From contig CP000067.1 in assembly GCA_000002445.1 (NCBI GenBank), positions 192,001 through 256,000 on the forward strand: 64,000 bases of DNA, written 5' to 3'. Source of the DNA: Trypanosoma brucei (lineage: Eukaryota). A program made the position numbers and the translations under genes. Positions within the stretch are counted from its first letter, which is position 1; every line of letters begins with the position of its first letter. Positions 4,567 to 60,446 of the stretch are shown piece after piece. The notes under the pieces are model-generated. The model ran no database searches. It was given only the letters and a program-made list of their open reading frames with translations, and was not told the DNA's origin.

Positions 4567-4847
4567 ACGAACTGACAAAAATCTCAAAAAGAAAGAAAAA
4601 GAAAAATTGAGGGCAGCGATGGTTGCAAGTAAGTTGTGCAGGGGAAGGCAGAGTCAACCAGTGAGAAGATTTCGCATGGTTTCAAGTACTGTAGCTCAAA
4701 GGAATCGCCGTGAGTGACTTGTTCAAGTAGACGAGCGAGGCCGAAAACGGAAAGAACGTCAACATGGCAGCAGAACCCAGAGGAAAATGCGCATTTTCCT
4801 CCTTTCTCTTTCCTCCTACGTGCCACCTCGGACCACCTCATTTACAC

Positions 4848-8518: not shown

Positions 8519-8521
<3 letters not shown>

Positions 8522-8561
<40 letters not shown>

Positions 8562-20179: not shown

Positions 20180-23100
20180 TTACGACAAACTGAAGTTCCT
20201 TCTGCCCTCGGTGATTGCTACCAAAAGACGTTCCTTCATTATTTTTCGTGTTGAGTACGGGGGAAGCTTAAAATAGAGAAAACAAGTGTTGCACGATGGC
20301 AGCGTCTGCTCGCCACGACCCTCCAACTCCTTCCGGACAACAGTTATTTTCCTCCCAAGCCCATCCAAGCCATTCAGGGGAAGCTGAGGGCATCCTGTTA
20401 GAAACTCAATAAAAAGTTGTTGCTGTTCACGAGTAAACTCATCACCGACAAGAGAAATGAACGTTTCGACCTCCTGAGAACCAGTGGAGTAGCCATGTGC
20501 CTCCATGACAGCAGCACGCAGCGCCTCTTCACTAAAAAGTTTCTCCTCGGAGTCCTCCGCAGAGAAGCCACAAATAATTGCACTCATTTCATCATCTGTG
20601 AAAAACCAAAAGGCGTCAAGATCCACAACACTTGCAAGACCACGCGCAAACCAGTGGAGATTCGAAACAGCATTAGTCAGGCGCCTCTCTACACACTTTT
20701 CCACATAAAACTTAGCCGTTGAAACGGTCAGCGCCTCACCAGTTTCCTCGTCCTCAAGGCCCATTTGTTCAAGTTCGGCATCCGTCGCTTGGAGAACGCA
20801 CTTGTAGGAATTCGCCAGGGCCGGTTCGACCTCCTCCAAGAGATGCCACAACACCTCCACTGAAGGAGTTTGTGAGCGGATAAGCGGCCACACGACCGGC
20901 AAAAGACTAATATCCATCGTATAGCCATCAGCGAAGGCCCGACCACAGCTAGCACCGAGAACAAAGAACCTCTTGGGATGAACCTGCTGCATGCTGGGAA
21001 AGGCGATGCACACACCATCATCCCGGTGGTGCCATAGTTCCGACATGCTGCGATACCGACGTGACAGCTCGGCATACAACTCCTGTGTTGGACCTTCTCC
21101 TGTGCCCTCCTCGCCCTCAAAATTAAACTCCACTTTGTTACGCAACGTGGGATATTCCAGAAAAACTTTGTACAACGTGTTCGTAATGCTTTCAGTATTC
21201 CTCTTCACCGTTACCTTAAACGCAAGACCATTACTAGCTATGCTTCCAGTAACAGTTCCCCGTACATTCACACCGACATCTTGCAAGTGGTAGAGGCCAA
21301 ACCTGCAGCATCCAACGGCAAGAAAGTGAGCCATGTTACGCTTGAACGCAAGCGAAATATATGGAGCCACCTCCTGAAGTATAAGAACCACTCGTGATGG
21401 AATACCAGAAACCCCGCTTAGGAAAATGTCTTCACCGCGCGACTCGAGGGCATTTACGATGGAAAGTTCAACAGCGGTGTCAACCCACCGCTGAGGTCGC
21501 GTGGCGAGGAAAGTGTGCAAGAACACACGTAATGATGAGTGTTCAGCAATATTGTGAGCCGCTGAGCATGCGACAAACGGAGGACAAGGGATGCAGCAAC
21601 GACACTCACCGCCTACTGGGGCTATGTGTACATCATTTCCTTCAAGCAACGATACAGGTCGGCTAGCGGGTACAACACCACTCGAAGTAAAAAGCATCAC
21701 TTCACCGGCATTCCCGCTGCAACCACTTTTTCTTTTTTGAGAAGAAGTGCTACTGGTGGAAGGCGATCTTTTCAACTTTAACGCCTTCCAGGATTGTATG
21801 ACATCCCCAACGACTGCCGAGGAATTTGTCTCCATGCGAGAAAGCTTCTCGTCTACACAGTTACTACATAAGTCATAATTACAGTCTCTGCATGCAAGGG
21901 ATCCAAATGCATTCGCGAAAGCACAAGAATCACATCTCCAGTTAACACTAAAGTGTACACGAAGAGCATGTCCATTGGGACACCGCGGAGCGCCCTTCCC
22001 CTTAATTCGATCACCTGCACTGCAGATGTTTACTGTATAAGAAGTGCTGCGCACTCTCTCCGCAAGGTCCTCACCCACGGGTTTGCACGATGCCGTATGA
22101 TGAAGCACACGCAACACATATGTTTGTGCGACAGTTCTCATCCGTGAAGCCAGTACATCATCTTTTTTCATTTCTTCACACAAAGCCATCATCTGCTCCT
22201 CACCATACGGCGACTTCTCCAACCCTTGGACAAACGCCAACAATTCTGAGGAGGAGGTTGTACGCAAGAACGCCAGCACATTACCAGGGGACCGTTGAAC
22301 CTCCCGCAGACAGTCGGCGCCACGCTTTACCTCTGAAGTTGAGCTTTCAATCCTGTTCTTTTTACCTCCATCTCGGGCCAAACACTCGGCGGCCGGCGTG
22401 TCAGCAACCCCGGCTTCCTGCAGTACACTTGCCCATCTTTTATCTCGTTTCAGCAGTGTAGCGCATATTTCGCCAACTGTAGGCTCCTTCTGATCAGCTG
22501 GTAGACTGCAGAAAGCGGTAATGACGTCCATCGTGTTCGTGGGGTCGCCACTGCATATGATATAAAACCGTATGGAACGCGCCAAAGAGGCCACCTGCGT
22601 GTGTCCGAATGACAAGGGACGTAACGCATCTTGCACAGCAGCGCAAACCTTTTTCTTAAGCATCATACCTCGTGTCGGAATAGCTAGTCCCCCATCAAAT
22701 GATATGGCACACGGTATGGGTTGGAAATGCACCCTTGAGGCTGTGTCGCCGTGTGCAAAGTTGTCCGTCATGGTTTGCAAATCAATCACGTGACGACCCG
22801 GGGCAACAATCCTTGACCGCTCAGCGGAGAAGTACATTGTCGTCAACCGTCGTCTGACTTTTTTAATGTACAAATGGTACTCATCGTCTCTACCACGCCA
22901 TGCCCATATATATTCACTCTGAAAGTTAAAATTTGCACCACACAACTTCGCCAACAGCACCAGGGCACTCCACAACAGCGATGGCACGACCCATCGTAAG
23001 TTCGGCAAGGTCGGTGTGCTGTCGATCCACGGTTGCTCAGCATTAACCGCCACAGAGTCACTGCCGCTATTAAACGGATTGGAAAAACTCGCGCTGCGCA

Positions 23101-24040
23101 CTTCACTCCGCAGCAAGAGTTGCGCTAACCACAACATTGCCGATTCGCACGCTTCTCTGGGAAGTAAGTGAGTTTCAATCACACTAGCCAGGCACGCCAG
23201 TGTGAGTTGGACACGCGAACTCGCCGTCCCGCTACCTGCGATCCGCTCACCAATCTGAAGTAAAGTTACCATCATATTCCTAAGAGAAGTTATATGAGTG
23301 GATGATGATGATGCACCCCCTTCTTCCGACCCGCGGCGATGTTTTCCTCCTTGTCGGTCTGGGGACAAAACACGCGGGGCGCACCACGCCCGATACGTTA
23401 AAATGCCCTCCACAACTGTGCGGAGGAGTTCGTCCCATTCGTGGTCAATGTCCAAGTGAAATAAAGCCATCAGGTGGTGATGCACCAACTGTTCCAGTGC
23501 CCTGCAATCCGTAGCACTCTTCAGTTCCTTCTGTCGCATCAATCCGATGGAATGATGGAGAACTTTACACGAAGTACGCTTGGAGCCATCCACAGCAGCA
23601 AGACAAAACTGGATCTGTTCCTCTGTGGATGGCACTACAACAGCAAGTTCACAACACTTGCTAGAAAGGGATAAACACTGCAGTACCTCCTCCTTCAACT
23701 CGCCCTCCGATGACTTCTCAAAGTGCAGTGACTCTCTTTTTTGCATGTCCACCATGGAAACCACAGTGGAAAAACATTTCCTGAAAGTATCCAATCCATT
23801 TCTCGTATCCAGAGAAAATAAAGAGCCTGAAAGCCTATCAAGTATAATAACAATCGCACGAGCAGCCATTACCATCACATCACCACTGCTGCTGCCTTTT
23901 GTCAATGCCATATCAATGGCCCTGATGAGTGGCTGCAATGGAACATCTGTCGAGTCTCCTGCAATAATAAGAAGCGTGCAAAGATCTGAAAGCAGGTCAT
24001 ATGGGGCCCGCGATGGCGTGACATCAAGGGATAGAAACAT
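20180..24040 (-). CDS. HECT-type E3 ubiquitin ligase (1286 aa) with an internal ZZ-type zinc finger
   Basis: ATG at 24038-24040. The C-terminal 350 aa is a HECT domain ending ...LPSCNTCFLYFKLPPYSTRKIMKERLLVAITEGRRNF. Residues about 687-730 are CPNGHALRVHFSVNWRCDSCAFANAFGSLACRDCNYDLCSNCVDEK, matching the ZZ signature (CxxC...CxDYDLCxxC). Confidence 0.8.
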   Translation of the reverse strand: MFLSLDVTPSRAPYDLLSDLCTLLIIAGDSTDVPLQPLIRAIDMALTKGSSSGDVMVMAARAIVIILDRLSGSLFSLDTRNGLDTFRKCFSTVVSMVDMQKRESLHFEKSSEGELKEEVLQCLSLSSKCCELAVVVPSTEEQIQFCLAAVDGSKRTSCKVLHHSIGLMRQKELKSATDCRALEQLVHHHLMALFHLDIDHEWDELLRTVVEGILTYRAWCAPRVLSPDRQGGKHRRGSEEGGASSSSTHITSLRNMMVTLLQIGERIAGSGTASSRVQLTLACLASVIETHLLPREACESAMLWLAQLLLRSEVRSASFSNPFNSGSDSVAVNAEQPWIDSTPTLPNLRWVVPSLLWSALVLLAKLCGANFNFQSEYIWAWRGRDDEYHLYIKKVRRRLTTMYFSAERSRIVAPGRHVIDLQTMTDNFAHGDTASRVHFQPIPCAISFDGGLAIPTRGMMLKKKVCAAVQDALRPLSFGHTQVASLARSIRFYIICSGDPTNTMDVITAFCSLPADQKEPTVGEICATLLKRDKRWASVLQEAGVADTPAAECLARDGGKKNRIESSTSEVKRGADCLREVQRSPGNVLAFLRTTSSSELLAFVQGLEKSPYGEEQMMALCEEMKKDDVLASRMRTVAQTYVLRVLHHTASCKPVGEDLAERVRSTSYTVNICSAGDRIKGKGAPRCPNGHALRVHFSVNWRCDSCAFANAFGSLACRDCNYDLCSNCVDEKLSRMETNSSAVVGDVIQSWKALKLKRSPSTSSTSSQKRKSGCSGNAGEVMLFTSSGVVPASRPVSLLEGNDVHIAPVGGECRCCIPCPPFVACSAAHNIAEHSSLRVFLHTFLATRPQRWVDTAVELSIVNALESRGEDIFLSGVSGIPSRVVLILQEVAPYISLAFKRNMAHFLAVGCCRFGLYHLQDVGVNVRGTVTGSIASNGLAFKVTVKRNTESITNTLYKVFLEYPTLRNKVEFNFEGEEGTGEGPTQELYAELSRRYRSMSELWHHRDDGVCIAFPSMQQVHPKRFFVLGASCGRAFADGYTMDISLLPVVWPLIRSQTPSVEVLWHLLEEVEPALANSYKCVLQATDAELEQMGLEDEETGEALTVSTAKFYVEKCVERRLTNAVSNLHWFARGLASVVDLDAFWFFTDDEMSAIICGFSAEDSEEKLFSEEALRAAVMEAHGYSTGSQEVETFISLVGDEFTREQQQLFIEFLTGCPQLPLNGLDGLGRKITVVRKELEGRGEQTLPSCNTCFLYFKLPPYSTRKIMKERLLVAITEGRRNFSLS
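21851..21982 (-). other. ZZ-type zinc-finger module inside the HECT ligase
   Basis: The WRCDSC...CRDCNYDLCSNC motif mapped by residue count from the 24040 start. Confidence 0.55.
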
Positions 24041-24684
24041 ATGGAACGAGATATACTCGTCAATGATTAATTCCCCACCCTCAACCTTGCTTTTCGACTT
24101 CTTTAGCTTCTTCTTATTTTAAAAAAAAATAAAAAAACTTCCCCTCCCTTATGTTCGAGATCTTACTTAAGAGGAGACACAACACCTCACACTATTGCCT
24201 GGAGTCACTTAAATTATTTTTATTTTTGAAAAAAAAAAGGAGAAAAAAAAGGTCAGTGCAGTCGATGTGTTCACTCGTCCAAAAATTAAAAGAAGAATCA
24301 GTGATAAGAGAGGGGGGAAAAGAAGGGAAAATACATCTGGAAGGGAAAATGGAGCAGCAGACGATGTAAAACTTCCTCAGCACTACACGCCACAGCATCC
24401 CCAACAAGAAGAATCCAACATTAGAAACAATAGGGAGGAGGAAAACACACACACACACACACACAATCCACTCTGCAGCAAACCATTCATTGATAACACA
24501 ACGTTATCACTTCCACACGCATAAAATACACACCAAACAGTAATAATAGTAATAATAATAATAATAATAATCATCATCATCATACAAACCAAACAAAACC
24601 ATATCAAATCAAAAAAAGTTTTTTTGTTTCAGCAACCTCCAATCACCCTCAATCCAAATCCGCAGTCGCTTGCATAAACCCCCG

Positions 24685-24942
24685 TCAGTTATGCGTAAAT
24701 ATTTTCCAACCGAGCCAACTGAAATATGCGGCAACAACAATTACCGGTGGCACAAGAGGAGGAATGAGCGCACGATACCACATCGGGTCCATCACTGAGC
24801 GCTCACTTCGTTCAATAGGGCGATTAAGACATTCCCACATGCATAAAACAAACCATAAGACGCCCGCCCATGCGGTTATCAATGAGGGCCAACCAAGTAA
24901 AAAGCACTTTAGTGGTTGATTCCTGTAGTCCAGGGCATACAT
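24685..24942 (-). CDS. Candidate small (about 85 aa) two-TM membrane protein, not previously noted
   Basis: Same-strand ORF in the HECT-upstream spacer. The first ATG at 24940-24942 gives MYALDYRNQPLKCFLLGWPSLITAWAGVLWFVLCMWECLNRPIERSERSVMDPMWYRALIPPLVPPVIVVAAYFSWLGWKIFTHN: two clean hydrophobic helices separated by a charged loop and no low-complexity content. It could still be chance. Confidence 0.25.
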   Translation of the reverse strand: MYALDYRNQPLKCFLLGWPSLITAWAGVLWFVLCMWECLNRPIERSERSVMDPMWYRALIPPLVPPVIVVAAYFSWLGWKIFTHN

Positions 24943-26134
24943 ACAATTTGTAAGATCCGTAACTAACAGCACTAATACGAGAAACGGGAGAAATAAAATA
25001 AAATAAAATAAAAAGGAGGGGATGAAGATGACAAGGGAAACAAGTCACTCCAAGTACTCGACCACTACCTGATCCGCTTTTTTTTCTTCTTTTGTCGTTT
25101 CTTATTTACGTTCTATCTGCAGTATCTATTTTATGGTGTTTTCCTTTTTTAAGAAAATAATATGTTACCTATGTGAGAGAAATAAATAAACTGAAAAAAA
25201 GTTACTCCAGCTTCAACGTCGCCGCAACTCGTTCTGGTGAACGAGACACTGCTTGCCGCAACTACCAGAAGCAACACATAACATATATATGGAGGAGGAA
25301 AATGTTTTTTTTTTCAAAAAAAAGGACCAATTTCCCGCACGCAACAAAAAAAAAAACAAAGAGAAAAGAAGGAGGAAAATTCGGGGACAAGCAAAAAACA
25401 GGTTCTGCAAACAGTCAAACATTCGGGAAATAGAGAAGAACAAAAAAAGGAAACCGCATGAAAGATGTGAGGGTAGTAATGATTTTCTTTTTTTTTTTTT
25501 GCAAAGCAAAAAAAAAGAGACGCACCCCACCAAAACAAAAGAAAAAAGAAAATGAAATCCACCGCGCAGTAGCAAGGGCCCTCGTCCAGTTTTTATAGCC
25601 ATCAATCACAACGCCACACCAAAGAAAAACTCGACATTTATGCGAAATTCGCCACCCCATTTACTTGCAAACACCTGTGCACGCATGCAAAAATGTTTAG
25701 ATATATAAACAAAAGTTTATCCGAACCTCAACGTATTTGTGTAAATAGATATGAGCACGAAGGTATTTGTGTCTATGAACTGGTTTGTTCCGTCTAGCGT
25801 AAAGCACACATGTAGAAAATTAAGCAAAAATCGGTTACCGCCCAATATCTCGAACCCACAATCCCCCACCTGATAACGAAAGGCTAAAAAGAAAAAAAAA
25901 ACACACACACACACGCAGAAATATCACCAACCCACGCAACACTAGGAACGAAACCAAAAAGAAAAAAGAAAATAGGGGTGTAATAAACGTGAGGCGAACA
26001 GACGTACGTAACCGTAATTCTTTTTGTTTGTTTTTCTTGCTATTGCTATTGTTTGTCTTCTCTCTTCCCTTTTTAATGTTTCTATTCGTGAAAAAAAAAA
26101 ATAGAATATATTTCCTTCTCACCTTTCTATTGTT

Positions 26135-28372: not shown

Positions 28373-31300
28373 CTACCAGAACGGTGCCCAACCAGTTATA
28401 TATGCCTCAGCAAGATTATCAAGACTTGTTGCTTCTTCAATAAGACGGTCGACTTGACTCGCTACGTTCTGCAAGTTTTCCTGATTATTAACTGTTCGGA
28501 ATGATGACCATGAAGGAAGCGCTCTGCCATCTGTCATATACACATCCCTGGACGACTCAGCAAGGCCCTGCGACCACCAGGAGAAGGGATCGTTTGGATC
28601 TTCAGAAACCTCCCGTCGAGACGGCTGCCCCGCAACCACGTGGCATCCATCGGCAAAATCTTCACCCGTCAGCTTCGCACGGACGCGGGCCAAAGCCAAG
28701 TCCCCTTGCGTGTTACGAGTTTCTTCCTCACCAGTCTGTTCTAATGTCGTTCCAGGTGCCTGCTCACGAACTTTCAAAACTGACCGCGAAAGCTGCATCG
28801 GAGGGCCATCGATGAGGCCATCTGGTTCAGCAAATGGGCTCGCTTCACCGCCTGCCACGGGGGCCTCCAATAGCGAGGCGGAATTCTCCCCTTCGGCAAC
28901 GGTCGTCAGACGCCAGTTGATGAGCGGATCGTAAATGAATGCTTCAAGAATTGAAAGGAGGTTCTCCGAGTGCCGCCGGAGGATTTTCATTACCAGTTCA
29001 CATGTCAAGCGAAAAACGCCGTCAACACCAGTGATACCCAAAGCAGGAACAAGCAAACGAGTTAATCGAAACGGCACCGCCTCGGAATACAACGAACGGT
29101 GCATAGCCACTTCAAAGCAATCACCAAAGTCAATGTGGACGACAGATCCCTTATCCTGAAGCATTAAATTATTGAGATGCCTGTCTCCCAACCCTAATAC
29201 ATATCCCACAATCGACATTATGGCCAACGTGTGGCCGTAAGTCCCCCTGTACTGCAACCAATGTTCGCACGTATCATTTTTGTCCCAAATAATACGCCGC
29301 AGTTCATCATCAGGGGTGCTGGCCATAACGTGACTTAGTAGCTGCTTCCTCTCCTGTTTGTTCCGATGATGATACTCTGTGATGTTGACTAACTTTCCCT
29401 TTTCCACTATCATGCTCACCTCTTTATAGATGGAAATATTGTGATCCTTCCGCCACCGCTCTAGCATCTTGTATATCGTTTCAGTGTTCTCCACCCACCC
29501 GATAATACCCACGTTATCGGTTAATGGAATGACAGCGTACTGGGGAATGATTAAGCCCATTGCGTTCGATAAGCTGTCCGAAGAGAATATGGTATTGATC
29601 AACTCAATAAACTGCATGACACGCTCATCCTGACGTAAATCTTCGTGTCCTTTCAGAAGAAACCGATATTTACTCCCATCTGAACCGTCTACACCGAAGC
29701 GCCGAGGCCGCTGCTTAGACGGCATAACATAAACACGAGAATGAAACTTCTGAATCGTAATGAGTTGCTGACCTAACACAAACGTACCAGGGACCGGGAC
29801 ATTGCTTTTGTTTATCTTTACAAGCGTGGGGGACAAATCATCCATCTGAAGCCGTCGTTCTCCGACTGCTTTGTGCAGTTCGCAGTAAACCTGCTTCAAG
29901 AGGACCCATGCCTCCTGCGATTCCCCTTTCTGTAGCGCTGCCCAGGCACGCCGCAGGGTTGAACCGTGAACTTTCACAAAATGCTGTTCATTGGGTGTCG
30001 ACTCCTTCTTCATCTCCTCGTAGAGGGGACGCAGGATGTTGCGGATTTCTGACACATTTTCTGGCTTCCCAGCTGCCAGTTGAATACAGTTGTGCCATTT
30101 TTCGGTCCATAAGATAGCAATTCGAACCATTTCGTTGCTGATTAGTGAAGCCTCCTCCACCATAGGGCCATTGGTGACCCGAATACCCTTAAGCACACGC
30201 TCAGCCGCCTGCCGCCGCATGACCTCGGGTGATTTCTCTGTCACAGTAAGTGGATATAGGAGAGCATGTGGGAAGTTGCTGCCGATACTCACAAGCAGAT
30301 CCGTGAGAATAGACCTTGCCTTGGCTCCCGTAATGCCTATACGCGCAACCAGTTGTGGAATAACGTTCAGCCACACGTAGCACGGGACACTTTTGATGCC
30401 CTCCTGAATTGCTTCGTTGACCTCATTCACAGTGCTGTGCGAAAACCAAATTGAGAGAATGCGAAGCACATCTTCCATCACACCATTGCTCTCCCTCCGA
30501 GACAGAGCCACGGCCTTGAACAACGCGGTAATTGACTCGATGTGATGCTTCGTTTGAGTCTCTTGCGATGTATTGGGATCACGGGACAAGTCGTAGTGTA
30601 AAATTCCAAGGGAGTGAAATGCAGCACAGTTTTCTGGACAAAGTTGCGTTGCAGTCCTCAGTGTCTCAATTGCCTTAGTTCCGCAATCAGGGAAGAGTTG
30701 AACCGTCCACTCACCGAGCAACAACCAACAGCACCCCCACGCCTCGGCACGGTTACTAGTTGCAGTTAACTGTACATTATTAAGTATATCGGAGAGTAAG
30801 GTGTAAGTCTCCTGCTTCCCTCTGGTGACATAACAGTGCTTCATGTACACATGAATTACATCAGGGTCTAAATTGGCCAACCGTGTGTTTAAGCCGTTAG
30901 GGTGAAGTAAAGTGCTTAGCGTATGGTCAGCTAGTGACGTCCAGTGATGCTTAGTTAAAGCACGCACGCAAACGACCTGCGATGGCAAATCTTCCTGGGG
31001 TGAAAGCACCAATGAATTAATGGTGATGAGTGTCTTTATATGCGCTGGTCGAGAGGACATGAGGGTGACGCGTTTATGCCACAATTCCCTTAACATCTTT
31101 CGCCGTTCACTTCCTGATTTTACAAATGACACAAGCTCCTCAAAGTGTCGCACGTGCTGTAGCTCCACCAGTGTATCGTAAGAGCGATTGTAGCTTTCTG
31201 TGAACGACTCGAAGAATGAATCAAAAAGTGACTTTCTATGCTCATCTACATAATCCAGAAGCTCTCCGTAATGTTTCTGCCGGAAGAGGGAAGCACAACG

Positions 31301-34300
31301 CTCAACCATATCTAAGCGTTCCATCACACCAGGCTGCCCAACAACTTCATCAAACTCATCCCACCTACCCAACCAGAGAGCAGCTTTGGCCTTGAGTGGA
31401 GCCACCTCAAGTTGCGCATCTCTGTCCAGTAACTCCCAGTTTGTCGCGATGAGCTCCTGCATGGTGATGGTCTCACCCAGAGCATCGTAACATCGTAGAG
31501 CACCCAGGAACGCCGAAGTGTCGAGGGTACCATCTGCAACATTCATTCGAGACTTGTAGCGAGAGAGTGCTTCACCCCACCAATTTAACTGCTCCAGAGC
31601 TCCAACCTCATCGAACCCAAACTGCTCTGGAGCGATAATATTGCTGGAGAACTTCTCCGACATCTTCTTAACGAGACCCTTCGCGACCATTGTAAGCCCC
31701 AAGTGGTTGTAGAACTCGATCAGGCGCTCCGCCACCTCTAATGCGTGCCGCACTGCAGCATTCTGCCGATCAGAAACCTGACCACTCAGTTCGCTCAGAA
31801 GTTGAGCAAAGAGGATCTCATTCAAGAATATGGCTCTGGCGTACATCTTAGAATTCAAAGCCACACGTGCTAACACATCAATATCCATCAAGCAGTCGAA
31901 GGAAAGTCCTCGCTTCCCTCCATTGGGGCATTCCAATGTTAACTCAATCCGGTTAAGCCCCTTAACAGCACCAACAACCTCGTGAGTTGTAACTAATCTC
32001 TTGCCGTTAAGAGCCAACAGTCGAGCGCCAACAGGGACACCTGCTAGAGCTCCGGGACCGCCAGGCTCCAGGTGCGACACTACAACGTCCCCACTTACTT
32101 CATCGTAGTTAATGCCGAACTTGCGCTCTTCGTTATCCCTTTCCACAACAAAAGTTAGCTTTTCCACCAAGAGTATCATTTCAGGATTTAACTTACCGCG
32201 CTCCGACTCAATAAACTCAGCGAAGTCAAAAATTGCCTGCTTGATGTCGTTGGGAGAAACCTCTAGAGCACGTGTAAAGGCTTTAATTATAACCTCTTGT
32301 TGTTGCGCGTTTAGTTTCCCAATAAACGCAGCAGCAGCAAAGGGAAAGAGATCGCGTGAAAGACCGGTATTGTCCGCAGCGAGCTGTGCTGTGCACCGCA
32401 GCGGCTGAATGGGAGAATTTTTGAGCATCACAACGGAAGTGTTATGCAGCCAAGCCATCCACGATTGTTCACGTTTCTTCTTGTTAGCCACTGGCATCCT
32501 GGATATGTTCTCGAGTAAGCTGTCATCAACCTGACAGTAACTCATGGCATTTTGGACCAGCTTTAGTATGCCCAAGTTTCGACTCAAGGTGGACTGAGAT
32601 TCCTGTGCCTTGCTCGTGAACGAACGAAAGTTAAGAAGCAAATCCTCACCCTGAACGAAGCGAAAGTAGACGACGGTGTTGCCCTCCGAGTGTGTTACGG
32701 ATATAACTTCAAAGTCATGATCCCCCAGTCGCAGGACCCTTTTCATCACCTGCTGGAAGTCCTCCTTTGATAGCGACGGCTGGTCGGAAACGAGTGTAAG
32801 GGGAAGTTCAGGGTTGAGATTGTCGTGCCCACTGAGGGGGGCACGAGCCTTCAACAAACCATCTGCTGCAGACTTTAACAAATTAGTGAACATATCCTCC
32901 GGGAGTCCACACTGCTGCACAAGACGCTGTATGGGTTTAATGAAACGCCTTGCGGGGCGCTGCACGATGCCCACAAGAAATGCAAGCGTACGGAGACCCA
33001 TCTCCATCTCATCTTGGCAATCGGATTCTTCAATGTACCAAGTAATAGTGTGAATGATTTGCGAACAAAAATCCTTCATGAGCAGAGGTTGCTTCGCCAT
33101 GATTTGGTTGAGGAACTCAAAGCAGGCCGTATTCACCTCCTTCTTCTTTAGACCGGGTACGTTCGGTGTGGCTGCGTCTGCTGGCTCAATACACCCAAGT
33201 ACATGGGGTAACAACACCTGAAAATCCCTCTCGTGCAGTATGGCTAAGAACGAGTCGAGTGACTTCACAGCGCGGACAACCAAAGCAAGATCTCTCTTAT
33301 CCTGCAGGAGCCGCTGATGGATAAACTCCACAGCCCATCGGTGGTCGCGCATTTCCTCCGGTGACAGTCCCCGACCCACTCGATCTAGCAACTCCACCAC
33401 ACCTGCATTGAGAGGTTTTTGTGAGGCCTGGGGAAGCAAACAAAAAAGCCGGACAGACTTCAAAAGTTCCAATCCTGTGCTTGCAGGGATAACGTCTTTG
33501 AACCGCTGCAAGAGAGTGGCAAGGTCAGACATTAAAAGTAAAATTACTTCGTACAGATGCACCTTCTCGGGGTCTGCAAGCCAAGCCTGCAGTTGTGGTA
33601 GGAACTGTGTGAGAAGCATCGCCTTTTGTCTTCCTGGTACCTCATGTATCATCGAATGAATGACAGAAATGACACTGGCTTGTTGTTCAACATCCGCAGA
33701 ATGCTGAAGGGTTTTCACTAACAAGTAGAGGACGATGCACGGATATCGCTCGTCCATGTGCAGATGAATACGCAGTCGTGGCTTGTAAAGGGCCAATGCA
33801 GGTGTCGCAACCTCTTCCTCCTCTGCTATCTCACCCTCTTGTAGTGCCTTCACAATGTATCTAGCCTTCGTCGGGTCGACGGCTCCAATGACACTCAGAC
33901 ACTTCATGGCAGAGTAAATCACAGCCTCACTTTCCTCCGCTTCACCACGTATAATCCGTGAGAGCGCGCGGTATACACTCACATGGGTAGATTGCTCAGT
34001 AATGGGAACAGTGGCCAAAATTGAGCAAAGTGCCTCAATTGCAGCCTTCCGCCGAGTCGACGAAGTACTCCCATTAACAATGGCAAGAACAGGCTGAATA
34101 AGTTGTTTCGCATCACAATGGTTCCGTGGACCAGAATGATCCAGAACGGCTCTCAACAGATTCAACAGTGCAACAGAAAGACTCTTTGAGACAAACGGCT
34201 GTTTTTCTAGTCTTCTTAACACTGATGTCTCAACTGTACTAGGGGACAGAAGTATCGTTCCATTTTCCGCCGCCATTTGCAGGAGAAAGGCGTGATAAAC

Positions 34301-36160
34301 TGTCGAGGAGATAGAGCCATCCTTTACATCAATCTCTCGCAACATGTACTCTTGAAGCTGCAACAACTGTGCATGCAAAATGTCAGGCTGTAAAGAATGG
34401 AGTCTGTACAGTAACAACATGGCCTGATCCCGCACACCACGGCAGACGTCATTACGGGACATAAATAAAGCATCTATGTTGTCCAGTTGGACGAGATATG
34501 GCTCAAACACGGGCGAGAGCCTTTTCAGAGTATAGTAGCGTATTTCCATTTGCCTGTCCGTCACCGCAACGTCAAGCAGGCTCTCTACGGCAATTTTAAC
34601 CCTACTGTTCAGTTGCGTAATAGTGGCGTCTACATGGCTCCCTTGGCAACTTCCCCCCTTGTCGGGAGACAGAAGAACCTCACAAAGACTAACGACTGTG
34701 CCGACAGCCGCACGTCTGACATCAGTGTGTTTGTGAAATACAAGACCAACCGCGCTCTCAAGTGCCTCAGTGTATCGTAGTGTTTCGAGGAAAGAGAGGG
34801 ATCGCACCAAGACATCGACGTCACTATCGGGTGAGAGATCAATATTGCACTCTTCGAGCCAATCCACATTGGATGGGGCGCGATTCCCCATGAAATGAAG
34901 AAGTGCAGCAACCTTCTCGACGCTGTTGAGCACATCGGCTCGCTCAAGCAAATCATACACCCCAAAAACACATTGCTCTCCACATTGAGTTCGCAAATAG
35001 TCAAGTATTTCAAAAGCTAGTTGATTAAAAGGAGATTTCGCTATGAAGTCACTCACAGCGTCGACAGTGAGCACTGCATGCGACTCGATATTATTGAGGG
35101 ATTTGATAACACTTCTAAAAGTGGTGAGTGCGCTTAAGGCAACAGCCTCGTCGCCACCAGAGATGTAGGACAAAAGATTTTTCATGACCAAATCGTACAA
35201 TTTTTCGTCCTTGACTAAAAGGGGAAGAATTTTTCCCGTTGCGCGTGCGGCCCTAACACGAACGTCCTCGGTGTATACCCTCCAGTCACGTTGCACCACG
35301 AAGGAAGCAACAGCTTCTAGCGACCACGGCACAGTCTGCAAAGTAGAAGATGCCGATATTGCGTCAATTACCGTTAAGAGTCCGGTTATGTGTTTTTCCT
35401 CAGTTGCTGACGATAAGTGAGACGTCATGGTGCTGGCCATCTGCTCCGCCATTGAGGCGGTCACCTCAATACAGTGACTTTCCGCGATGTTAACAAGGAG
35501 ACGTGTTAGTGCTTGGCGGTGCCAATTATCGTTACTTTCCATGATTTCGTGTATGAGACAAGGTGGCGAGCAGGGTGTGTTCAGCAGGTCCAAAAGAGCA
35601 GGACTCCGCTTGATCACCACAGCCCCTGCATCCACCATGGTGGCAACCGTTTGGCAACCTACAGCCTTAGCACGAGTAACCGAGCTGGACTGCATTGTGG
35701 TAATGGCTCGCCCAAAATGCTTCCCAAGAAGGTCAGATGTGGAGCGCACATTTTCCCTTAGCACCTCTCCCATTTCCTGCAAAATGGTGTTGCAATCCGC
35801 CTCGTTTGTTGTCTCACAAACCTTCCGTACGAGAAGAGTAAAACATCTACACCTCAATTCGTGTGGGTCCCCCAAATGTACATCAAACACGACACGAAGA
35901 GATTTGACCCCTTTGCTAATTGAAACACCGAAAGTGTCGCACAACAGTTGGAAAATATAGTCGATCAAACAATGTTCACTCAGCTCCAGTGCATGCGCCA
36001 CGAGGATATCGAGCAGCGCGGAAAGGCACTCCTCTACACGACGGGGGCGGTCATCAGGTGCGTTCTGAAGGTTTGAAAATACTAGTCCAAACTGGCGTGT
36101 AAGTGCAGAAGCACTGTCACCGAAAGGCCTTGATGACCTCGGACTCTCTATATTTGACAT
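28373..36160 (-). CDS. TOR3: TOR-family phosphatidylinositol-3-kinase-related kinase with an inserted PDZ domain (kinetoplastid TOR3 / TOR-like 1 architecture)
   Basis: The track ORF starts at TTG (36229); the first ATG is 36158-36160 ([10 protein letters not shown]...). From the N-terminus: HEAT/FAT helical repeats; a PDZ domain at about residues 1372-1446 ([67 protein letters not shown]); an FRB-like region ([16 protein letters not shown]...[17 protein letters not shown]); the PI3K/PI4K catalytic domain ([26 protein letters not shown]...[27 protein letters not shown]); and a terminal FATC (...[14 protein letters not shown]). Confidence 0.85.
   Translation of the reverse strand: [2595 protein letters not shown]
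28910..29782 (-). other. PI3K-like catalytic (kinase) domain of the TOR-like kinase
   Basis: [13 protein letters not shown] (catalytic loop region), HIDFGDCFE (DFG-equivalent) and [28 protein letters not shown]. Confidence 0.75.
31892..32116 (-). other. PDZ domain inside the TOR-like kinase
   Basis: The GLGF-like carboxylate-binding loop (PGGPGALAG) followed by the beta-strand and alpha-helix spacing of a PDZ domain, mapped by residue count. Confidence 0.6.
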
Positions 36161-36199
36161 TCGGCTCCAGCAGAAATGAGTACCCACAAGCAGAAATAT

Positions 36200-36245
36200 G
36201 TATATGTGAGCGCTAACAAGCAAAGACAAAAGAACAGAGGGTCAC
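36200..36245 (-). promoter_or_regulatory. Polypyrimidine tract / candidate splice-acceptor region upstream of the TOR-like kinase
   Basis: The minus strand reads ccctctgttcttttgtctttgcttgttAGcgctcac..., followed about 45 nt later by the ATG at 36160. Confidence 0.35.
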
Positions 36246-38925: not shown

Positions 38926-40071
38926 TTAACTTCCAGATGCGGGGAAAGGACGCTGGCCTCCATAGCAACGCTGCGTAAATACACTTTGAGGTGAATAACG
39001 AAGCCCCCTGCTATGTATGGAATACAAGTTGTTGACAAGAGGATCAGTCACAGAGAGTTGGGGATTTATGGGGATCACAAGCTCGACGAGTCCGGAGTCA
39101 ACAGAAAGCAGTTGGGCGACATCACCACCCCTTTCACCAGCCGACCTCAACCTGGATGCGATACGGCGCAGAACACCGGCGACGAACCGCAGTGTGTCGT
39201 CGGAATTAGCGGGTTGGACATAATCCTCAACAAGTATGCTGTGCCGCGGCTGTCGGTGTACAGAAAGCGGGTTATTTTCAAGGCACAGCACTCGATCCAA
39301 AGGCCGACCCAGTAATGAGAGGTCCTTCACGCCCCCACAGTCCTCCTTGAACCAGCGGTGGTGACGAGAAATAATATGATGGTACCAGGCACGCCTCTGC
39401 ACAACCGTCGTTATCGCTTGCACTAACTCATTAACGTGGGAAGCGGTTCCAGCTGACCAAACCACAACTTCACAACCCTCCTCATGACAGACGTCGAACA
39501 GCTCCTTCAGGTGCGGTCGCAAGTGAGCACAACCACCCCGAGCGGCAACAAGTGTCTCATCCAAGTCAACAACAAAACACAATGGCGCGCCCGGGGGACC
39601 TCCACCCTGCGGGAGTAGCACTCCTTTTCTTTTCCCTTGAGAGCGACGGGTGGAAACTCGGCGCACCGGTGGCGCCGTAACTTCTTTTCGTGAGCGCCGC
39701 CTGCGGTCCTCTACGGTGTAAAGCGAGCAAAAAAGAAAGGGCCGTAGTTCCTGCAAAATGCTCATGTTGCCGTCATCGTCATCATAGTCACTAGAGTCGG
39801 AGCTCTCCAGCAGGGCGTCTTGAATAACATCGTTAATAACATCGAAATCAGACAACTCAGAGCTTTCATCGTCATCGCTGCATGAAAATGCGCTACCTGC
39901 TATTGTAACGTAAGAGGACTGAGGCGAGCGCACAGGAGAGGTGGGTTCGTCCCCACGAAAGCTCCTACTTTGTCTTGTTTGCCGTCTAACTGCAATTCGG
40001 TTCCTCCTTTCACCACGGTAGCGCGAAGGGGAACCCGTTGTGGAGGGTCTCTTCCTACACTTCCTGCTCAT
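38926..40071 (-). CDS. FCP1/NIF (CTD-small-phosphatase-like) HAD-family protein phosphatase with an Arg/Ser-rich and acidic N-terminal extension
   Basis: ATG at 40069-40071. The catalytic DxDx(T/V) motif sits in CFVVDLDETLVAARGG. Downstream: VVWSAGTASHVNELV and KDLSLLGRPLDRVLCLENNPLSVHRQPRHSILVEDY, the NIF-domain consensus. The N-terminus has RRQTRQSRSFRGDEPTSPVRSPQSS then DDDESSELSDFD...DSSDYDDDDG. Confidence 0.7.
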   Translation of the reverse strand: MSRKCRKRPSTTGSPSRYRGERRNRIAVRRQTRQSRSFRGDEPTSPVRSPQSSYVTIAGSAFSCSDDDESSELSDFDVINDVIQDALLESSDSSDYDDDDGNMSILQELRPFLFCSLYTVEDRRRRSRKEVTAPPVRRVSTRRSQGKRKGVLLPQGGGPPGAPLCFVVDLDETLVAARGGCAHLRPHLKELFDVCHEEGCEVVVWSAGTASHVNELVQAITTVVQRRAWYHHIISRHHRWFKEDCGGVKDLSLLGRPLDRVLCLENNPLSVHRQPRHSILVEDYVQPANSDDTLRFVAGVLRRIASRLRSAGERGGDVAQLLSVDSGLVELVIPINPQLSVTDPLVNNLYSIHSRGLRYSPQSVFTQRCYGGQRPFPASGS

Positions 40072-43016: not shown

Positions 43017-43464
43017 ACTACCTGTTCTGGTTATGTTAATGAGCACGGAAGAAGAAGGATAAAAAAAAACGAAACGGAAGAAATAAATGCACGAACTTAC
43101 TCAATCCCCTCACCGACTCGACTGGTTGCTTCAGCACCCTTTGCCCTCCATGTGAAGCCGGGAGTAAACAAAATAAGTGAAAACCATATGCAAGTACATT
43201 TGATTGTCAGGCGGCTCCCCCTCCCCTACCCAACAACAAAAAAAAAACGATCATCTCCCCTTTGTAGCGCGTGGACACCATGTATTTAGCTTCCGTCACC
43301 ACCAGTTAGGTTGACTGGGATGCTAAAGTTGATCTTCCACCGTTGCCACATTTTGGTAACGGATGCACACACCTTTCTTTTGCAAGGGCAGCGGGGTGAG
43401 AGCAAGTGGAACGGGGAGGGAAAATATATACAAAAACAAACAGCCGTCGTTAAGGAGAGCCTCG

Positions 43465-60137: not shown

Positions 60138-60151
60138 ATGAATAATATAAC

Positions 60152-60205
60152 TTCTGAAGTATGAGAGGAAAACCAAAAAAAAAAGCAACAAAACCAACGC
60201 GATTG
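60152..60205 (-). promoter_or_regulatory. Polypyrimidine tract plus AG trans-splice acceptor region upstream of the dynein heavy-chain ATG
   Basis: The minus strand reads ...ttgttgcttttttttttggttttcctctcatacttcAGaagttatattattcATG. Long U/C run then AG about 18 nt before the start codon. Confidence 0.45.
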
Positions 60206-60446
60206 TTTCACGTGGCAGCGGAGGTCGGCGGAGCAAACGTGTGCGCACTGAGAAGCAGTGAGGAAGAAATAAAGTAGTACAGACACACACTAAACAAAAA
60301 GCGAAAGGGAAATAAACAAAGCCATTATGGGGGCGTGAACAAAGGGAATCATAATCTACACATCTCAACGGTTCCATCTCCTCTTTTTTGCGCCACACCG
60401 CTGTAGTTAATGACCCATGCTCCACCAGGACTAATGTATTGTTCCA

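What the first reader, a model, noticed from the sequence alone, without database searches (positions are those of the whole stretch)
28373..36160. TOR-family kinase carrying an embedded PDZ domain (TOR3 / TOR-like-1 architecture)
A full FAT–FRB–PI3K-like kinase–FATC protein is present, but a clear PDZ domain is inserted between the HEAT/FAT region and the FRB (residues about 1372-1446; nt about 31892-32116). Canonical TORs in fungi and metazoa have no PDZ domain. From the literature, a PDZ-bearing TOR paralogue is specific to kinetoplastids and has been tied to acidocalcisome and polyphosphate homeostasis rather than to TORC1 or TORC2. The long N-terminus before the first HEAT-like block, and the roughly 140-residue acidic linker between the kinase domain and FATC, are also atypical. 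Which ligand the PDZ binds is not known from anything I can see here, and it is the obvious experimental handle.
Basis: partly seen in the sequence, partly recalled or inferred. Interest (0 to 1): 0.6.

Follow-up and report, generated by a model that had tools for sequence, protein, structure and literature searches.

The report
Known trypanosome TOR3 kinase with PDZ
This gene is the already published Trypanosoma brucei TOR3 (TOR-like 1) kinase, whose extra PDZ protein-binding module is real but has been known since 2008-2010, so the finding is correct and ordinary.

Summary
The ORF is real. It lies on the minus strand at 28373..36160 and encodes 2595 aa. It is 100% identical to T. brucei brucei TREU927 XP_844230.1 / UniProt Q580A8. 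Its closest relatives are named TOR3 or TOR-like 1 in T. cruzi, T. rangeli and Lotmaria. Papers give TbTOR3 = TbTOR-like 1 = Tb927.4.800 and state that it carries an extra PDZ domain.

Pfam finds mTOR_dom, PDZ_6 (E 1.6e-6, just above the curated cut-off), FAT, FRB, PI3_PI4_kinase and FATC. An AlphaFold model of residues 1331-1413 has the canonical PDZ topology, and its 50 best listed PDB matches are all PDZ domains.

- The PDZ sits between the HEAT solenoid and the FAT domain (about mTOR residues 1373-1380), not between FAT and FRB.
- Its residue numbers are about 35 too high.
- The N-terminus is a confident HEAT/ARM-like solenoid from residue 13 and is shorter than mTOR's.
- The kinase-FATC linker is only mildly acidic. 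The extra length is a discrete 59-aa insertion just before FATC.

One addition: PDZ-bearing TORs with the same insertion site also occur in diplonemids (Diplonema, Namystynia) and in a prokinetoplastid, so the architecture is not restricted to kinetoplastids.

Verdict: already known, low interest.

The parts
28373..36160 (-). Complete CDS of TbTOR3 / TOR-like 1 (2595 aa plus stop codon at 28373-28375)
   Evidence: establish the ORF. One search gives 100% identity and coverage to P0001. One search identifies P0001 as XP_844230.1 / Q580A8, T. brucei brucei TREU927.
32489..36124 (-). N-terminal HEAT/ARM-like alpha-solenoid (residues about 13-1224), including Pfam mTOR_dom at 724-883
   Evidence: The AF2 model of residues 1-500 is all paired helices with mean pLDDT 89. 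Foldseek matches SF3B1, importins, PP2A-A, CAND1 and beta-catenin. Residues 478-858 align to mTOR 615-994 and yeast TOR2 568-967. mTOR_dom scores E 4.4e-21.
32189..32470 (-). Pre-PDZ helical segment (residues 1231-1324), colinear with human mTOR 1277-1372
   Evidence: phmmer against PDB chains.
31922..32170 (-). PDZ domain (residues 1331-1413). The carboxylate-binding loop is K1347-F-G-I1350 and the first residue of helix alpha-B is H1393.
   Evidence: Pfam PDZ_6 E 1.6e-6. The AF2 model has pLDDT 84-89 and the order b1-b2-b3-aA-b4-(b5)-aB-b6. The 50 best listed Foldseek PDB matches are all PDZ domains, led by Scribble PDZ1 at E 9e-6. R1341, F1348, G1349, Y1352 and G1370 are invariant in 19 sequences from kinetoplastids, a prokinetoplastid and diplonemids.
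30176..31888 (-). FAT region (residues about 1425-1995; Pfam FAT 1588-1902 and HEAT_ATR 1914-1995)
   Evidence: One search gives the Pfam hits. Residues 1512-1586 align to mTOR 1438-1512. That the stretch 1425-1511 belongs to FAT is an inference from its position; it has no reported alignment to mTOR.
29876..30133 (-). FRB domain (residues 2010-2095) with altered rapamycin-contact positions
   Evidence: Pfam FRB_dom E 3.4e-14. In the alignment to mTOR, W2101 is kept, S2035 becomes A, Y2038-F2039-G2040 fall in a 3-residue gap, Y2105 becomes K, F2108 becomes Y and D2102 becomes V.
28910..29668 (-). PI3K-related kinase catalytic domain (residues 2165-2417) with intact catalytic motifs
   Evidence: Pfam E 9e-62. 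LKGHEDLRQDERVMQ, GDRHLNN (D2326) and HIDFGD (D2344) align with the same motifs of mTOR.
28652..28909 (-). Kinase-to-FATC loop (residues 2418-2503), colinear in position and length with the mTOR loop ending in the KLTGxDF helix
   Evidence: residues 2373-2503 align to mTOR 2386-2514.
28475..28651 (-). 59-aa insertion immediately before FATC (residues 2504-2562). mTOR has only 3 residues here.
   Evidence: maps the insertion. It is present at similar length in all 9 orthologues, at only 19-36% identity. The distance from KLTGxDF to the C-terminus is 87-162 aa in the 12 PDZ-TORs where the motif was found (no KLxGxDF match in the other 5), against 36 aa in two fungal and one red-algal TOR and in mTOR. 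Some TORs without a PDZ depart from 36: 40, 68, 83 and 109 aa.
28376..28474 (-). FATC domain (residues 2563-2595), ending ...AEAYITGWAPFW
   Evidence: Pfam FATC E 1e-10. It aligns to the mTOR and yeast TOR1 FATC.

Best explanation
The locus encodes TbTOR3 (also called TbTOR-like 1, Tb927.4.800), the third of four TOR-family kinases of Trypanosoma brucei. It is a full-length TOR with a HEAT solenoid, FAT, FRB, kinase and FATC domains and intact catalytic motifs.

A canonical, non-permuted PDZ domain has been inserted into one loop. That loop corresponds to human mTOR residues about 1373-1380, at the junction between the HEAT solenoid and the classical FAT domain.

Inferred mechanism: the PDZ keeps a functional peptide-binding groove and acts as a docking module. 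It would tie the kinase to the C-terminus or an internal hairpin of a partner or substrate, giving this paralogue a location and complex distinct from TORC1 and TORC2. Published genetics connect the protein to acidocalcisome maintenance, polyphosphate levels and stress or infectivity phenotypes.

What is shown here: identity, domain order, PDZ fold, insertion site, conservation of the binding loop, and intact catalytic motifs. What is inferred: ligand binding by the PDZ, its targeting role, and loss of FKBP12-rapamycin binding by the altered FRB.
For: Identity. The protein is 100% identical over 2595 aa to the TREU927 protein on a 1.59-Mb record. Orthologues at 60-64% identity are named TOR3 or TOR-like 1, and the Lotmaria orthologue is named TOR3. 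A neighbouring 4679-aa dynein heavy chain fits Tb927.4.870, which is listed as IAD1alpha in PMC5669419.

Literature. TbTOR3 = TbTOR-like 1 = Tb927.4.800 and controls polyphosphate and acidocalcisomes (PMC13340017, PMC7221892, PMC3160303). [quoted passage not shown] L. major TOR3 is similar to TbTOR-like 1 (PMC3901119). Leishmania TOR3 is needed in the mammalian host (PMC7902614, PMC10933368).

Architecture: Pfam.

PDZ fold: AF2 pLDDT 84-89; 322 PDB matches at E<=1e-3, and the 50 best listed are all PDZ domains.

Insertion site. Residues 1231-1324 align to mTOR 1277-1372 and residues 1512-1586 to mTOR 1438-1512. The crystallised mTOR-deltaN chains are 1174 aa long, which fits a construct starting at residue 1376. 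The exact start residue is from my own knowledge of that construct.

Functional groove. The [KR]-F-G-[IV]-x-Y loop and beta-2 strand form the most conserved block of the domain across 19 sequences that include diplonemids.

Catalysis. The Lys, DRH and DFG motifs are intact.

None of the fungal, plant or red-algal TORs returned lists a PDZ family.
Against: No experiment or computation here shows that the PDZ binds anything. The alpha-B1 residue that usually sets PDZ class is not conserved: H in T. brucei, N or S in other species. A single shared ligand motif is therefore not obvious. The Pfam PDZ score is only just above the cut-off, PF00595 is just below it, and sequence matches to solved PDZ domains are weak (E 0.0025-0.006). 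The locus tag Tb927.4.800 was never displayed by a tool; it is linked through papers, the protein's architecture and its neighbours. [quoted passage not shown]
Confidence: 0.9

Rival explanations
1. The PDZ is a structural relic. It is a folded spacer kept because it sits in a tolerant loop, with no ligand-binding role.
For: The specificity-determining alpha-B1 residue varies between H, N and S. The domain as a whole is less conserved (42-56% identity) than the FAT or kinase domains. Pfam scores in some orthologues (Phytomonas, Diplonema) fall far below the cut-off.
Against: The carboxylate-binding loop and beta-2 strand (F1348, G1349, Y1352, with I1350 nearly invariant) and R1341 are invariant from trypanosomes to diplonemids, while the surrounding surface drifts. 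That pattern suggests selection on the binding groove rather than on fold stability alone. The domain has been retained at the same site in all 16-17 divergent representatives.
Confidence: 0.1
2. The PDZ works in cis. It binds a segment of the same polypeptide, for example the clade-specific insertion before FATC, and so regulates the kinase instead of recruiting a partner.
For: The PDZ and an enlarged pre-FATC segment tend to co-occur. The distance from KLTGxDF to the C-terminus is 87-162 aa in the 12 PDZ-TORs where the motif was found, against 36 aa in mTOR and three other canonical TORs. The insertion keeps short conserved motifs in trypanosomatids, such as KDSF and TTYLSLR.
Against: There is no structural or covariation evidence. 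The insertion sequence is poorly conserved (19-36% identity) and gave no BLAST match in more distant members. The co-occurrence is not exclusive: a choanoflagellate TOR without a PDZ has 109 aa here, one fungal TOR 83 aa and an unnamed TOR 68 aa. Their spatial proximity in the folded kinase was not modelled.
Confidence: 0.07
3. The PDZ is a membrane or phosphoinositide-binding module that tethers the kinase to acidocalcisome-related membranes or granules, rather than a peptide binder.
For: Some metazoan PDZ domains bind phosphoinositides (established knowledge, for example syntenin, which is among the fold matches). The published phenotype concerns a membrane organelle (PMC13340017, PMC7221892).
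Against: Nothing in the sequence was shown to form a basic lipid-binding patch. The conserved residues are the peptide-groove residues.
Confidence: 0.05
4. The gene is really a canonical TOR1/TOR2 orthologue, or the PDZ match is a chance hit.
For: Some database names in the T. cruzi orthologue cluster read 'TOR kinase 1' or 'phosphatidylinositol 4-kinase'. TbTOR2 (Tb927.4.420) is on the same chromosome (PMC13340017).
Against: The PDZ fold is predicted with high confidence and matches hundreds of solved PDZ domains. The literature says TOR1 and TOR2 have the standard architecture and only TOR3 has the PDZ (PMC5461346). Most names in the orthologue clusters are TOR3 or TOR-like 1.
Confidence: 0.01

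Closest known systems
Trypanosoma brucei TOR3 / TOR-like 1 (Tb927.4.800; XP_844230.1; UniProt Q580A8)
   Same: It is the same protein: 100% identity over all 2595 residues, with the published extra PDZ domain (PMC5461346).
   Different: Nothing. GenBank still labels it 'hypothetical protein, conserved'.
Leishmania TOR3 (LmjF34.3940) and other trypanosomatid TOR3 orthologues (T. cruzi, T. rangeli, Lotmaria, Phytomonas)
   Same: They share the domain order, a PDZ at the same site, the same insertion before FATC, and 47-64% overall identity.
   Different: The PDZ alpha-B1 residue is N or S instead of H. The kinase-FATC loop is longer in the Lotmaria-like (Leishmaniinae) sequences P0009 and P0010. 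The L. major sequence itself was not retrieved.
Human mTOR and yeast TOR2 (canonical TOR; PDB 5h64, 4jsn, 6emk)
   Same: The HEAT solenoid, FAT, FRB, kinase and FATC are colinear. The FRB-kinase region scores E 1e-99 to 2e-100. Catalytic motifs are identical.
   Different: They have no PDZ; TbTOR3 has a net 122-aa expansion at mTOR 1373-1437. They have no 59-aa insertion before FATC. TbTOR3 has a shorter N-terminus. Several rapamycin-contact residues of the FRB are changed. The FATC cysteine pair is replaced by alanines.
Diplonemid and prokinetoplastid PDZ-bearing TORs (Diplonema papillatum KAJ9460065.1, Namystynia karyoxenos, Papus ankaliazontas)
   Same: The PDZ lies at the same insertion site, between ...AEFME.ER and ...PFFD..LA. 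The [KR]FG[IV]xY loop is conserved. All group with TOR3 in a rough NJ tree.
   Different: They are much longer (up to about 3200 aa in the named full-length ones; the Papus sequence is an 1863-aa fragment), with 48-59% kinase identity. They keep the FATC cysteines. The Diplonema PDZ is barely detected by Pfam (E 0.085).
Metazoan class I scaffold PDZ domains (Scribble PDZ1, ARHGEF11, NHERF1)
   Same: They are the best structural matches, at TM 0.6-0.7 and 24-28% identity. T. brucei has His at alpha-B1, as class I domains do (the class rule is established knowledge).
   Different: Here the domain is embedded inside a 2595-aa kinase rather than in a scaffold protein. Its beta1-beta2 loop is longer. 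Its ligand is unknown.

Membership tests
TOR kinases (PIKK family) | PI3K-related catalytic domain with the catalytic Lys, DRH and DFG motifs | tested here: met
   Pfam PI3_PI4_kinase E 9e-62. LKGHEDLRQDE, GDRHLNN and HIDFGD align with mTOR.
TOR kinases (PIKK family) | FAT domain upstream of the kinase and FATC at the extreme C-terminus | tested here: met
   FAT E 1.2e-24 and FATC E 1e-10, ending at the last residue. FATC aligns with mTOR and yeast TOR1.
TOR kinases (PIKK family) | FRB domain between FAT and kinase (distinguishes TOR from ATM, ATR, SMG1 and DNA-PKcs) | tested here: met
   FRB_dom E 3.4e-14 at 2010-2095. The best PDB matches are mTOR and TOR2, far ahead of SMG1, ATM and ATR.
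TOR kinases (PIKK family) | FKBP12-rapamycin binding by the FRB | not testable with these tools
   Several contact residues differ: S2035A, the F2039 region falls in a gap, Y2105K and F2108Y, while W2101 is kept. This suggests weakened binding, but the gap placement in the alignment is uncertain.
TOR kinases (PIKK family) | N-terminal HEAT-repeat solenoid | tested here: met
   AF2 model of residues 1-500, Foldseek matches to solenoid proteins, mTOR_dom, and alignment to mTOR 615-994.
Kinetoplastid TOR3 / TOR-like 1 | PDZ domain embedded in an otherwise complete TOR | tested here: met
   The feature is stated for TbTOR3 in PMC5461346.
Kinetoplastid TOR3 / TOR-like 1 | Closest relatives are the proteins named TOR3 / TOR-like 1, not TOR1, TOR2 or TOR4 | tested here: met
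   T. cruzi TOR3 63%, T. rangeli TOR-like 1 62%, and the Lotmaria TOR3 cluster 47%. The next hits are fungal TORs at about 30% identity over 27-45% of the query. TbTOR1, TbTOR2 and TbTOR4 were not retrieved, so no direct paralogue tree was made.
Kinetoplastid TOR3 / TOR-like 1 | Locus Tb927.4.800 on chromosome 4 | tested here: inconclusive
   The identical protein lies on a 1,590,432-bp TREU927 record. A dynein heavy chain about 10 kb away fits Tb927.4.870 (PMC5669419). No tool displayed the locus tag.
Kinetoplastid TOR3 / TOR-like 1 | Role in acidocalcisome and polyphosphate homeostasis; a complex distinct from TORC1 and TORC2 | not testable with these tools
   Literature only (PMC13340017, PMC7221892, PMC3160303, PMC5461346).
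Canonical PDZ domain | Profile match at or above the curated threshold | tested here: met
   PDZ_6 scores 28.2 bits against 27. PF00595 scores 22.2 against 23.2, which is below the cut-off.
Canonical PDZ domain | Six-strand, two-helix fold in non-permuted order | tested here: met
   DSSP of the AF2 model. The top Foldseek matches are eukaryotic scaffold PDZ domains aligned over 80-109 columns.
Canonical PDZ domain | Carboxylate-binding loop of the form x-hydrophobic-G-hydrophobic preceding beta-2 | tested here: met
   K-F-G-I at 1347-1350. F and G are invariant and I is nearly invariant in 19 sequences.
Canonical PDZ domain | Binds a C-terminal or internal peptide ligand | not testable with these tools
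   No ligand is known and none could be predicted here.

The most novel reading that the evidence does not exclude
The PDZ-bearing TOR may not be a kinetoplastid invention. It may be an older paralogue shared at least by Kinetoplastea and Diplonemea. Its two clade-associated additions are the PDZ at the HEAT-FAT junction and the enlarged segment just before FATC. These may form a coupled regulatory device, in which the PDZ docks the pre-FATC segment or a partner next to the kinase C-lobe. That would be a new mode of TOR regulation.
Probability: 0.1. Interest if true: 0.5.

Novelty: already known. Interest (0 to 1): 0.15.

Why it matters
TOR3 is needed for acidocalcisome biogenesis and mammalian infectivity in Leishmania, and for polyphosphate and acidocalcisome control in T. 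brucei. Its parasite-lineage-specific PDZ is therefore a plausible selective handle, and its ligand is still unknown in the papers held here.

The gene, its PDZ domain and its phenotype were published in 2008-2010, so the scan finding adds nothing new. The modest additions from this check are: an exact map of the insertion site onto mTOR; recognition of a second discrete insertion before FATC; and evidence that the architecture extends to diplonemids and prokinetoplastids. The last point would shift the origin of this paralogue to before the kinetoplastids.

Tried and rejected
- A word-indexed homology search with the 156-aa PDZ region returned nothing, not even the protein itself. This is an index limitation and not a biological result. 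It was replaced by the exhaustive representative search.
- The look-up of encoding contigs has no record of the T. brucei protein, so the chromosomal position could not be read directly.
- The primary papers (PMID 20495004 / PMC2911323; PMID 20551225 / PMC2900677; PMC2567229) are not held. Their content is cited only through later papers.
- The IQ-like motifs listed next to Tb927.4.870 in PMC5669419 were not found in the window's dynein ORF. That table mixes several proteins, so it could not serve as an identity check. The Pfam dynein architecture is used only as weak positional support.
- Literature searches for a diplonemid TOR3 or PDZ-TOR, and for 'TORC3' in trypanosomes, found nothing relevant.
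- The NJ tree has no bootstrap. It placed a choanoflagellate TOR (P0059) next to the PDZ clade, probably a long-branch effect, so it is used only as weak support for a single PDZ-TOR clade.
- I considered whether the protein's own C-terminus (…GWAPFW) could be the PDZ ligand. I rejected it as a TOR3-specific explanation, because the GW.PFW ending is shared by TORs that have no PDZ.
- Gene neighbours were checked for functional linkage: HECT ligase, adaptin, NIF phosphatase, HATPase_c kinase, DnaJ/TPR, C78 peptidase and dynein. They are unrelated housekeeping genes on the same strand, as expected for a kinetoplastid polycistron, and give no functional clue.
Full report
**1. What is in the sequence**

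The finding's coordinates hold one uninterrupted reading frame on the minus strand. The mechanical ORF is 28373..36229. The first ATG is at 36160 and the stop codon is at 28373-28375, giving a 2595-aa protein that ends ...ITGWAPFW. All sixteen ORFs of 250 aa or more in the window but one short overlapping ORF lie on the minus strand, and GC skew is negative in all but one 2-kb block of the window. This is the pattern of a kinetoplastid polycistronic unit.

**2. Identity**

The protein is 100% identical over its full length to a T. brucei brucei TREU927 protein on a 1,590,432-bp record. Its accessions are XP_844230.1, AAZ10671.1 and UniProt Q580A8. GenBank still names it 'hypothetical protein, conserved'.

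The next hits are trypanosome proteins of 2540-2593 aa at 60-64% identity. They include 'target of rapamycin kinase 3 (TOR3)' of T. cruzi and 'TOR-like 1' of T. rangeli. A 47%-identical cluster contains 'TOR kinase 3' of Lotmaria passim. After these come fungal TORs at about 30% identity over 27-45% of the query.

Papers in the library give TbTOR3 = TbTOR-like 1 = Tb927.4.800. They describe it as controlling polyphosphate levels and acidocalcisome maintenance (PMC13340017, PMC3160303, PMC7221892). L. major TOR3 is described as its counterpart (PMC3901119). [quoted passage not shown] 2008). Leishmania TOR3 is required in the mammalian host (PMC10933368, PMC7902614).

A 4679-aa dynein heavy chain lies about 10 kb away in the window. 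This fits Tb927.4.870, which is listed as an inner-arm dynein heavy chain (PMC5669419). The finding is therefore a rediscovery of a published gene and a published architecture.

**3. Domain anatomy**

Pfam gives:

| Family | Residues | Score |
|---|---|---|
| mTOR_dom | 724-883 | E 4.4e-21 |
| PDZ_6 | 1361-1403 | 28.2 bits (cut-off 27), E 1.6e-6 |
| PDZ (PF00595) | 1339-1409 | 22.2 bits (cut-off 23.2) |
| FAT | 1588-1902 | E 1.2e-24 |
| HEAT_ATR | 1914-1995 | E 1.4e-11 |
| FRB_dom | 2010-2095 | E 3.4e-14 |
| PI3_PI4_kinase | 2165-2417 | E 9e-62 |
| FATC | 2565-2595 | E 1e-10 |

The PDZ profile hit is marginal by score, so I tested the fold. An AlphaFold2 model of residues 1322-1432, built from ten orthologues, has pLDDT 84-89 across residues 1331-1413. 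Its element order is strand, strand, strand, short helix, strand, (strand), helix, strand. Foldseek against the PDB gives 322 matches at E<=0.001. The 50 best listed are all PDZ domains, led by Scribble PDZ1, ARHGEF11, NHERF1 and syntenin. The PDZ is real and of the canonical eukaryotic, non-permuted type.

**4. Where the PDZ sits**

That is not correct.

- Residues 1231-1324 are colinear with human mTOR 1277-1372.
- Residues 1512-1586 are colinear with mTOR 1438-1512.

So 187 residues of TbTOR3 replace 65 of mTOR, and the PDZ occupies the first part of that expansion. Orthologue alignments show the conserved flanks ...FAEF.ESERG before the PDZ and PLMD..VLARVA after it.

The site is the start of the classical FAT domain. 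The crystallised mTOR-deltaN chains are 1174 residues long. From my knowledge of that construct, this corresponds to a start at residue 1376, which is this same loop. The PDZ is thus a clean insertion in a loop at the HEAT-FAT junction, about 600 residues upstream of the FRB.

Its nucleotide range (31892-32116) overlaps about 78% of the true domain (31922-32170).

**5.

*N-terminus.* Residues 1-500 are predicted with mean pLDDT 89 as a continuous array of paired helices starting at residue 13. The model matches HEAT/ARM solenoids such as SF3B1, importins, PP2A-A and CAND1. TbTOR3 residue 478 aligns with mTOR 615 and with yeast TOR2 about 600. The N-terminus is therefore about 137 aa shorter than mTOR's. 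It is simply too divergent for the Pfam HEAT profiles. There is no long non-HEAT leader.

It contains 24 D+E and 12 K+R, which is 16% acidic against 12% for the whole protein, so it is only mildly acidic.

- Residues 2373-2503 are colinear with mTOR 2386-2514, up to the shared (V)R.KLTG.DF motif.
- The real difference is a discrete 59-aa insertion (2504-2562), where mTOR has three residues before FATC.
- This insertion is present at similar length in all nine orthologues, but at only 19-36% identity.

**6. Is the kinase active, and is the FRB a rapamycin site?**

The catalytic motifs are identical to those of mTOR: LKGHEDLRQDERVMQ, GDRHxxN and HIDFGD. This predicts an active kinase.

In the FRB, W2101 is conserved. 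S2035 aligns to Ala, Y2038-F2039-G2040 fall in a three-residue gap, and Y2105, F2108 and D2102 become K, Y and V. Gap placement in a pairwise alignment is uncertain. The changes suggest weak or no FKBP12-rapamycin binding, but do not prove it.

**7. Is the PDZ groove under selection?**

In ten orthologues, the block K-F-G-I-N-Y-D is invariant or nearly so. This block is the carboxylate-binding loop plus strand beta-2.

In a 19-sequence alignment that adds bodonid-like, prokinetoplastid and diplonemid sequences, the invariant residues are R1341, F1348, G1349, Y1352 and G1370. I1350, V1375, P1376, L1381 and L1407 are nearly invariant. Overall the domain is less conserved than FAT or kinase (42-56% identity). 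Conservation is thus concentrated on the ligand-binding elements, which supports a working binding groove.

The first residue of helix alpha-B usually sets PDZ class. It is His in T. brucei, as in class I domains by established knowledge, but Asn or Ser in other species. The ligand motif cannot be read off the sequence.

**8. Distribution beyond kinetoplastids**

An exhaustive HMMER search of 1.84 billion representative proteins with residues 1226-1532 found 16-17 TOR-length proteins. They align colinearly through the PDZ, at E 5e-81 down to 2.5e-7. Each full-length one also has FAT, kinase and FATC, and usually FRB. The named ones are:

- Phytomonas
- Lotmaria TOR3
- Diplonema papillatum KAJ9460065.1, from a genome contig of 268 kb
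- Namystynia karyoxenos, a diplonemid
- Papus ankaliazontas, a prokinetoplastid by my own knowledge
- An entry filed under the alveolate Colponema vietnamica. I suspect it comes from kinetoplastid prey, because its kinase domain is 64% identical to TbTOR3. This is an inference.

Pfam recognises the PDZ in these segments as follows:

| Sequence | Family | Score |
|---|---|---|
| Namystynia | PDZ_6 | 26.7 bits, E 4.7e-6 |
| Papus | PDZ_6 | 27.1 bits |
| P0119 (unnamed) | PDZ_6 | 28.1 bits |
| P0115 (unnamed) | PDZ_6 | 30.0 bits |
| P0111 (unnamed) | PDZ_6 | 33.4 bits |
| Diplonema | PDZ (PF00595) | 13.7 bits, E 0.085 |

The insertion site and flanking motifs are the same in all of them. A rough NJ tree without bootstrap puts all PDZ-TORs in one clade, apart from fungal, plant and red-algal TORs.

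The enlarged pre-FATC segment is also widespread in this clade. The distance from the KLTGxDF motif to the C-terminus is 87-162 aa in the 12 PDZ-TORs where the motif was found; no match was found in the other five. It is 36 aa in two fungal TORs and one red-algal TOR and in mTOR. It is not exclusive to the clade: a choanoflagellate TOR without a PDZ has 109 aa here, one fungal TOR 83 aa and an unnamed TOR 68 aa.

The statement that this TOR is 'exclusively present in kinetoplastids' (PMC7221892) therefore appears too narrow. The architecture is at least shared with Diplonemea. I found no paper in the held library that mentions this, but many journals are not held, so I do not claim priority.

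**9. Mechanism**

*Shown here:* a complete TOR kinase with intact catalytic motifs; a canonical PDZ inserted in a loop at the HEAT-FAT junction; a conserved peptide-binding loop; a second insertion before FATC.

*From the literature:* a role in acidocalcisome and polyphosphate homeostasis, and in infectivity in Leishmania.

*Inferred:* the PDZ docks the kinase onto the C-terminus or an internal hairpin of a partner or substrate. This would give the paralogue a localisation and complex distinct from TORC1 and TORC2.

*Rivals:* a relic spacer; cis-binding of the pre-FATC insertion; lipid binding. None can be excluded computationally, but the conservation pattern favours a functional peptide groove.

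**10. Verdict**

Secondary claims about PDZ position, the N-terminus and the acidity of the linker are inaccurate. The additions from this check are the insertion-site map, the pre-FATC insertion and the presence in diplonemids. They are incremental. Novelty: already known. Interest: low.

Noticed in passing
P0116 (Diplonema papillatum KAJ9460065.1, PDZ about 1517-1597); P0117 (Namystynia karyoxenos, about 1592-1652); P0121 (Papus ankaliazontas, about 382-465): TOR kinases with a PDZ at the same insertion site as TbTOR3 exist in diplonemids and a prokinetoplastid. The architecture is therefore not restricted to kinetoplastids, contrary to what one paper states (PMC7221892). No paper in the held library mentions this.
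   Followed up: partly
window 28475-28651 (-), residues 2504-2562: There is a discrete 59-aa insertion between the KLTGxDF helix and FATC, where mTOR has 3 residues. An enlarged segment at this position (87-162 aa from KLTGxDF to the C-terminus, against 36 in mTOR) is found in the 12 PDZ-bearing TORs where the motif could be located. Its function is unknown.
   Followed up: partly
window 28376-28411 (-), last 12 residues AEAYITGWAPFW: The two FATC cysteines typical of canonical TORs (LC...GWC.FW) are both alanine in trypanosomatid and bodonid-like TOR3. They are retained in the diplonemid and prokinetoplastid PDZ-TORs.
   Followed up: no
window 29876-30133 (-), FRB residues 2010-2095: Several mTOR rapamycin-contact positions are changed: S2035A, the F2039 region falls in an alignment gap, Y2105K, F2108Y and D2102V, while W2101 is kept. 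This suggests the FRB does not bind FKBP12-rapamycin well.
   Followed up: partly
database records for P0001 and the P0003 cluster: GenBank still calls the T. brucei protein 'hypothetical protein, conserved'. Members of the T. cruzi orthologue cluster carry conflicting names (TOR kinase 3, TOR kinase 1, TOR-like 1, PI 3-kinase, PI 4-kinase), so name-based orthology calls are unreliable here.
   Followed up: no
P0112 (EukProt entry filed under Colponema vietnamica): A PDZ-bearing TOR3-like sequence is filed under an alveolate. Its kinase domain is 64% identical to TbTOR3, and in the rough NJ tree it groups with the trypanosomatid and bodonid-like sequences. It is probably contamination from kinetoplastid prey (inference).
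   Followed up: no
window 46338-60377 (-); 20180-24040 (-); 16684-19089 (-); 38926-40071 (-); 41778-43046 (-); 60447-62378 (-); 11661-13139 (-); 3568-4587 (-): The neighbours are unrelated housekeeping genes, all on the same strand: a 4679-aa dynein heavy chain, a HECT E3 ligase, an adaptin large subunit, a NIF-type phosphatase, a HATPase_c kinase, a TPR/DnaJ protein, a C78 peptidase and a prenyltransferase beta subunit. This is a typical polycistron with no functional link to TOR3.
   Followed up: partly
window 6001-8000 and 24001-26000: These are AT-rich intergenic stretches (GC 0.32 and 0.39). One holds a pyrimidine-rich 35-bp repeat at 7682-7756, and (AAT)14 lies just downstream of it at 8519-8561. 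They are probably UTR or trans-splicing/polyadenylation regions.
   Followed up: no
tool behaviour: The word-indexed homology search with the 156-aa PDZ region returned no hit at all, not even the identical T. brucei protein that the full-length query had found. Short queries can be missed by that index.
   Followed up: no
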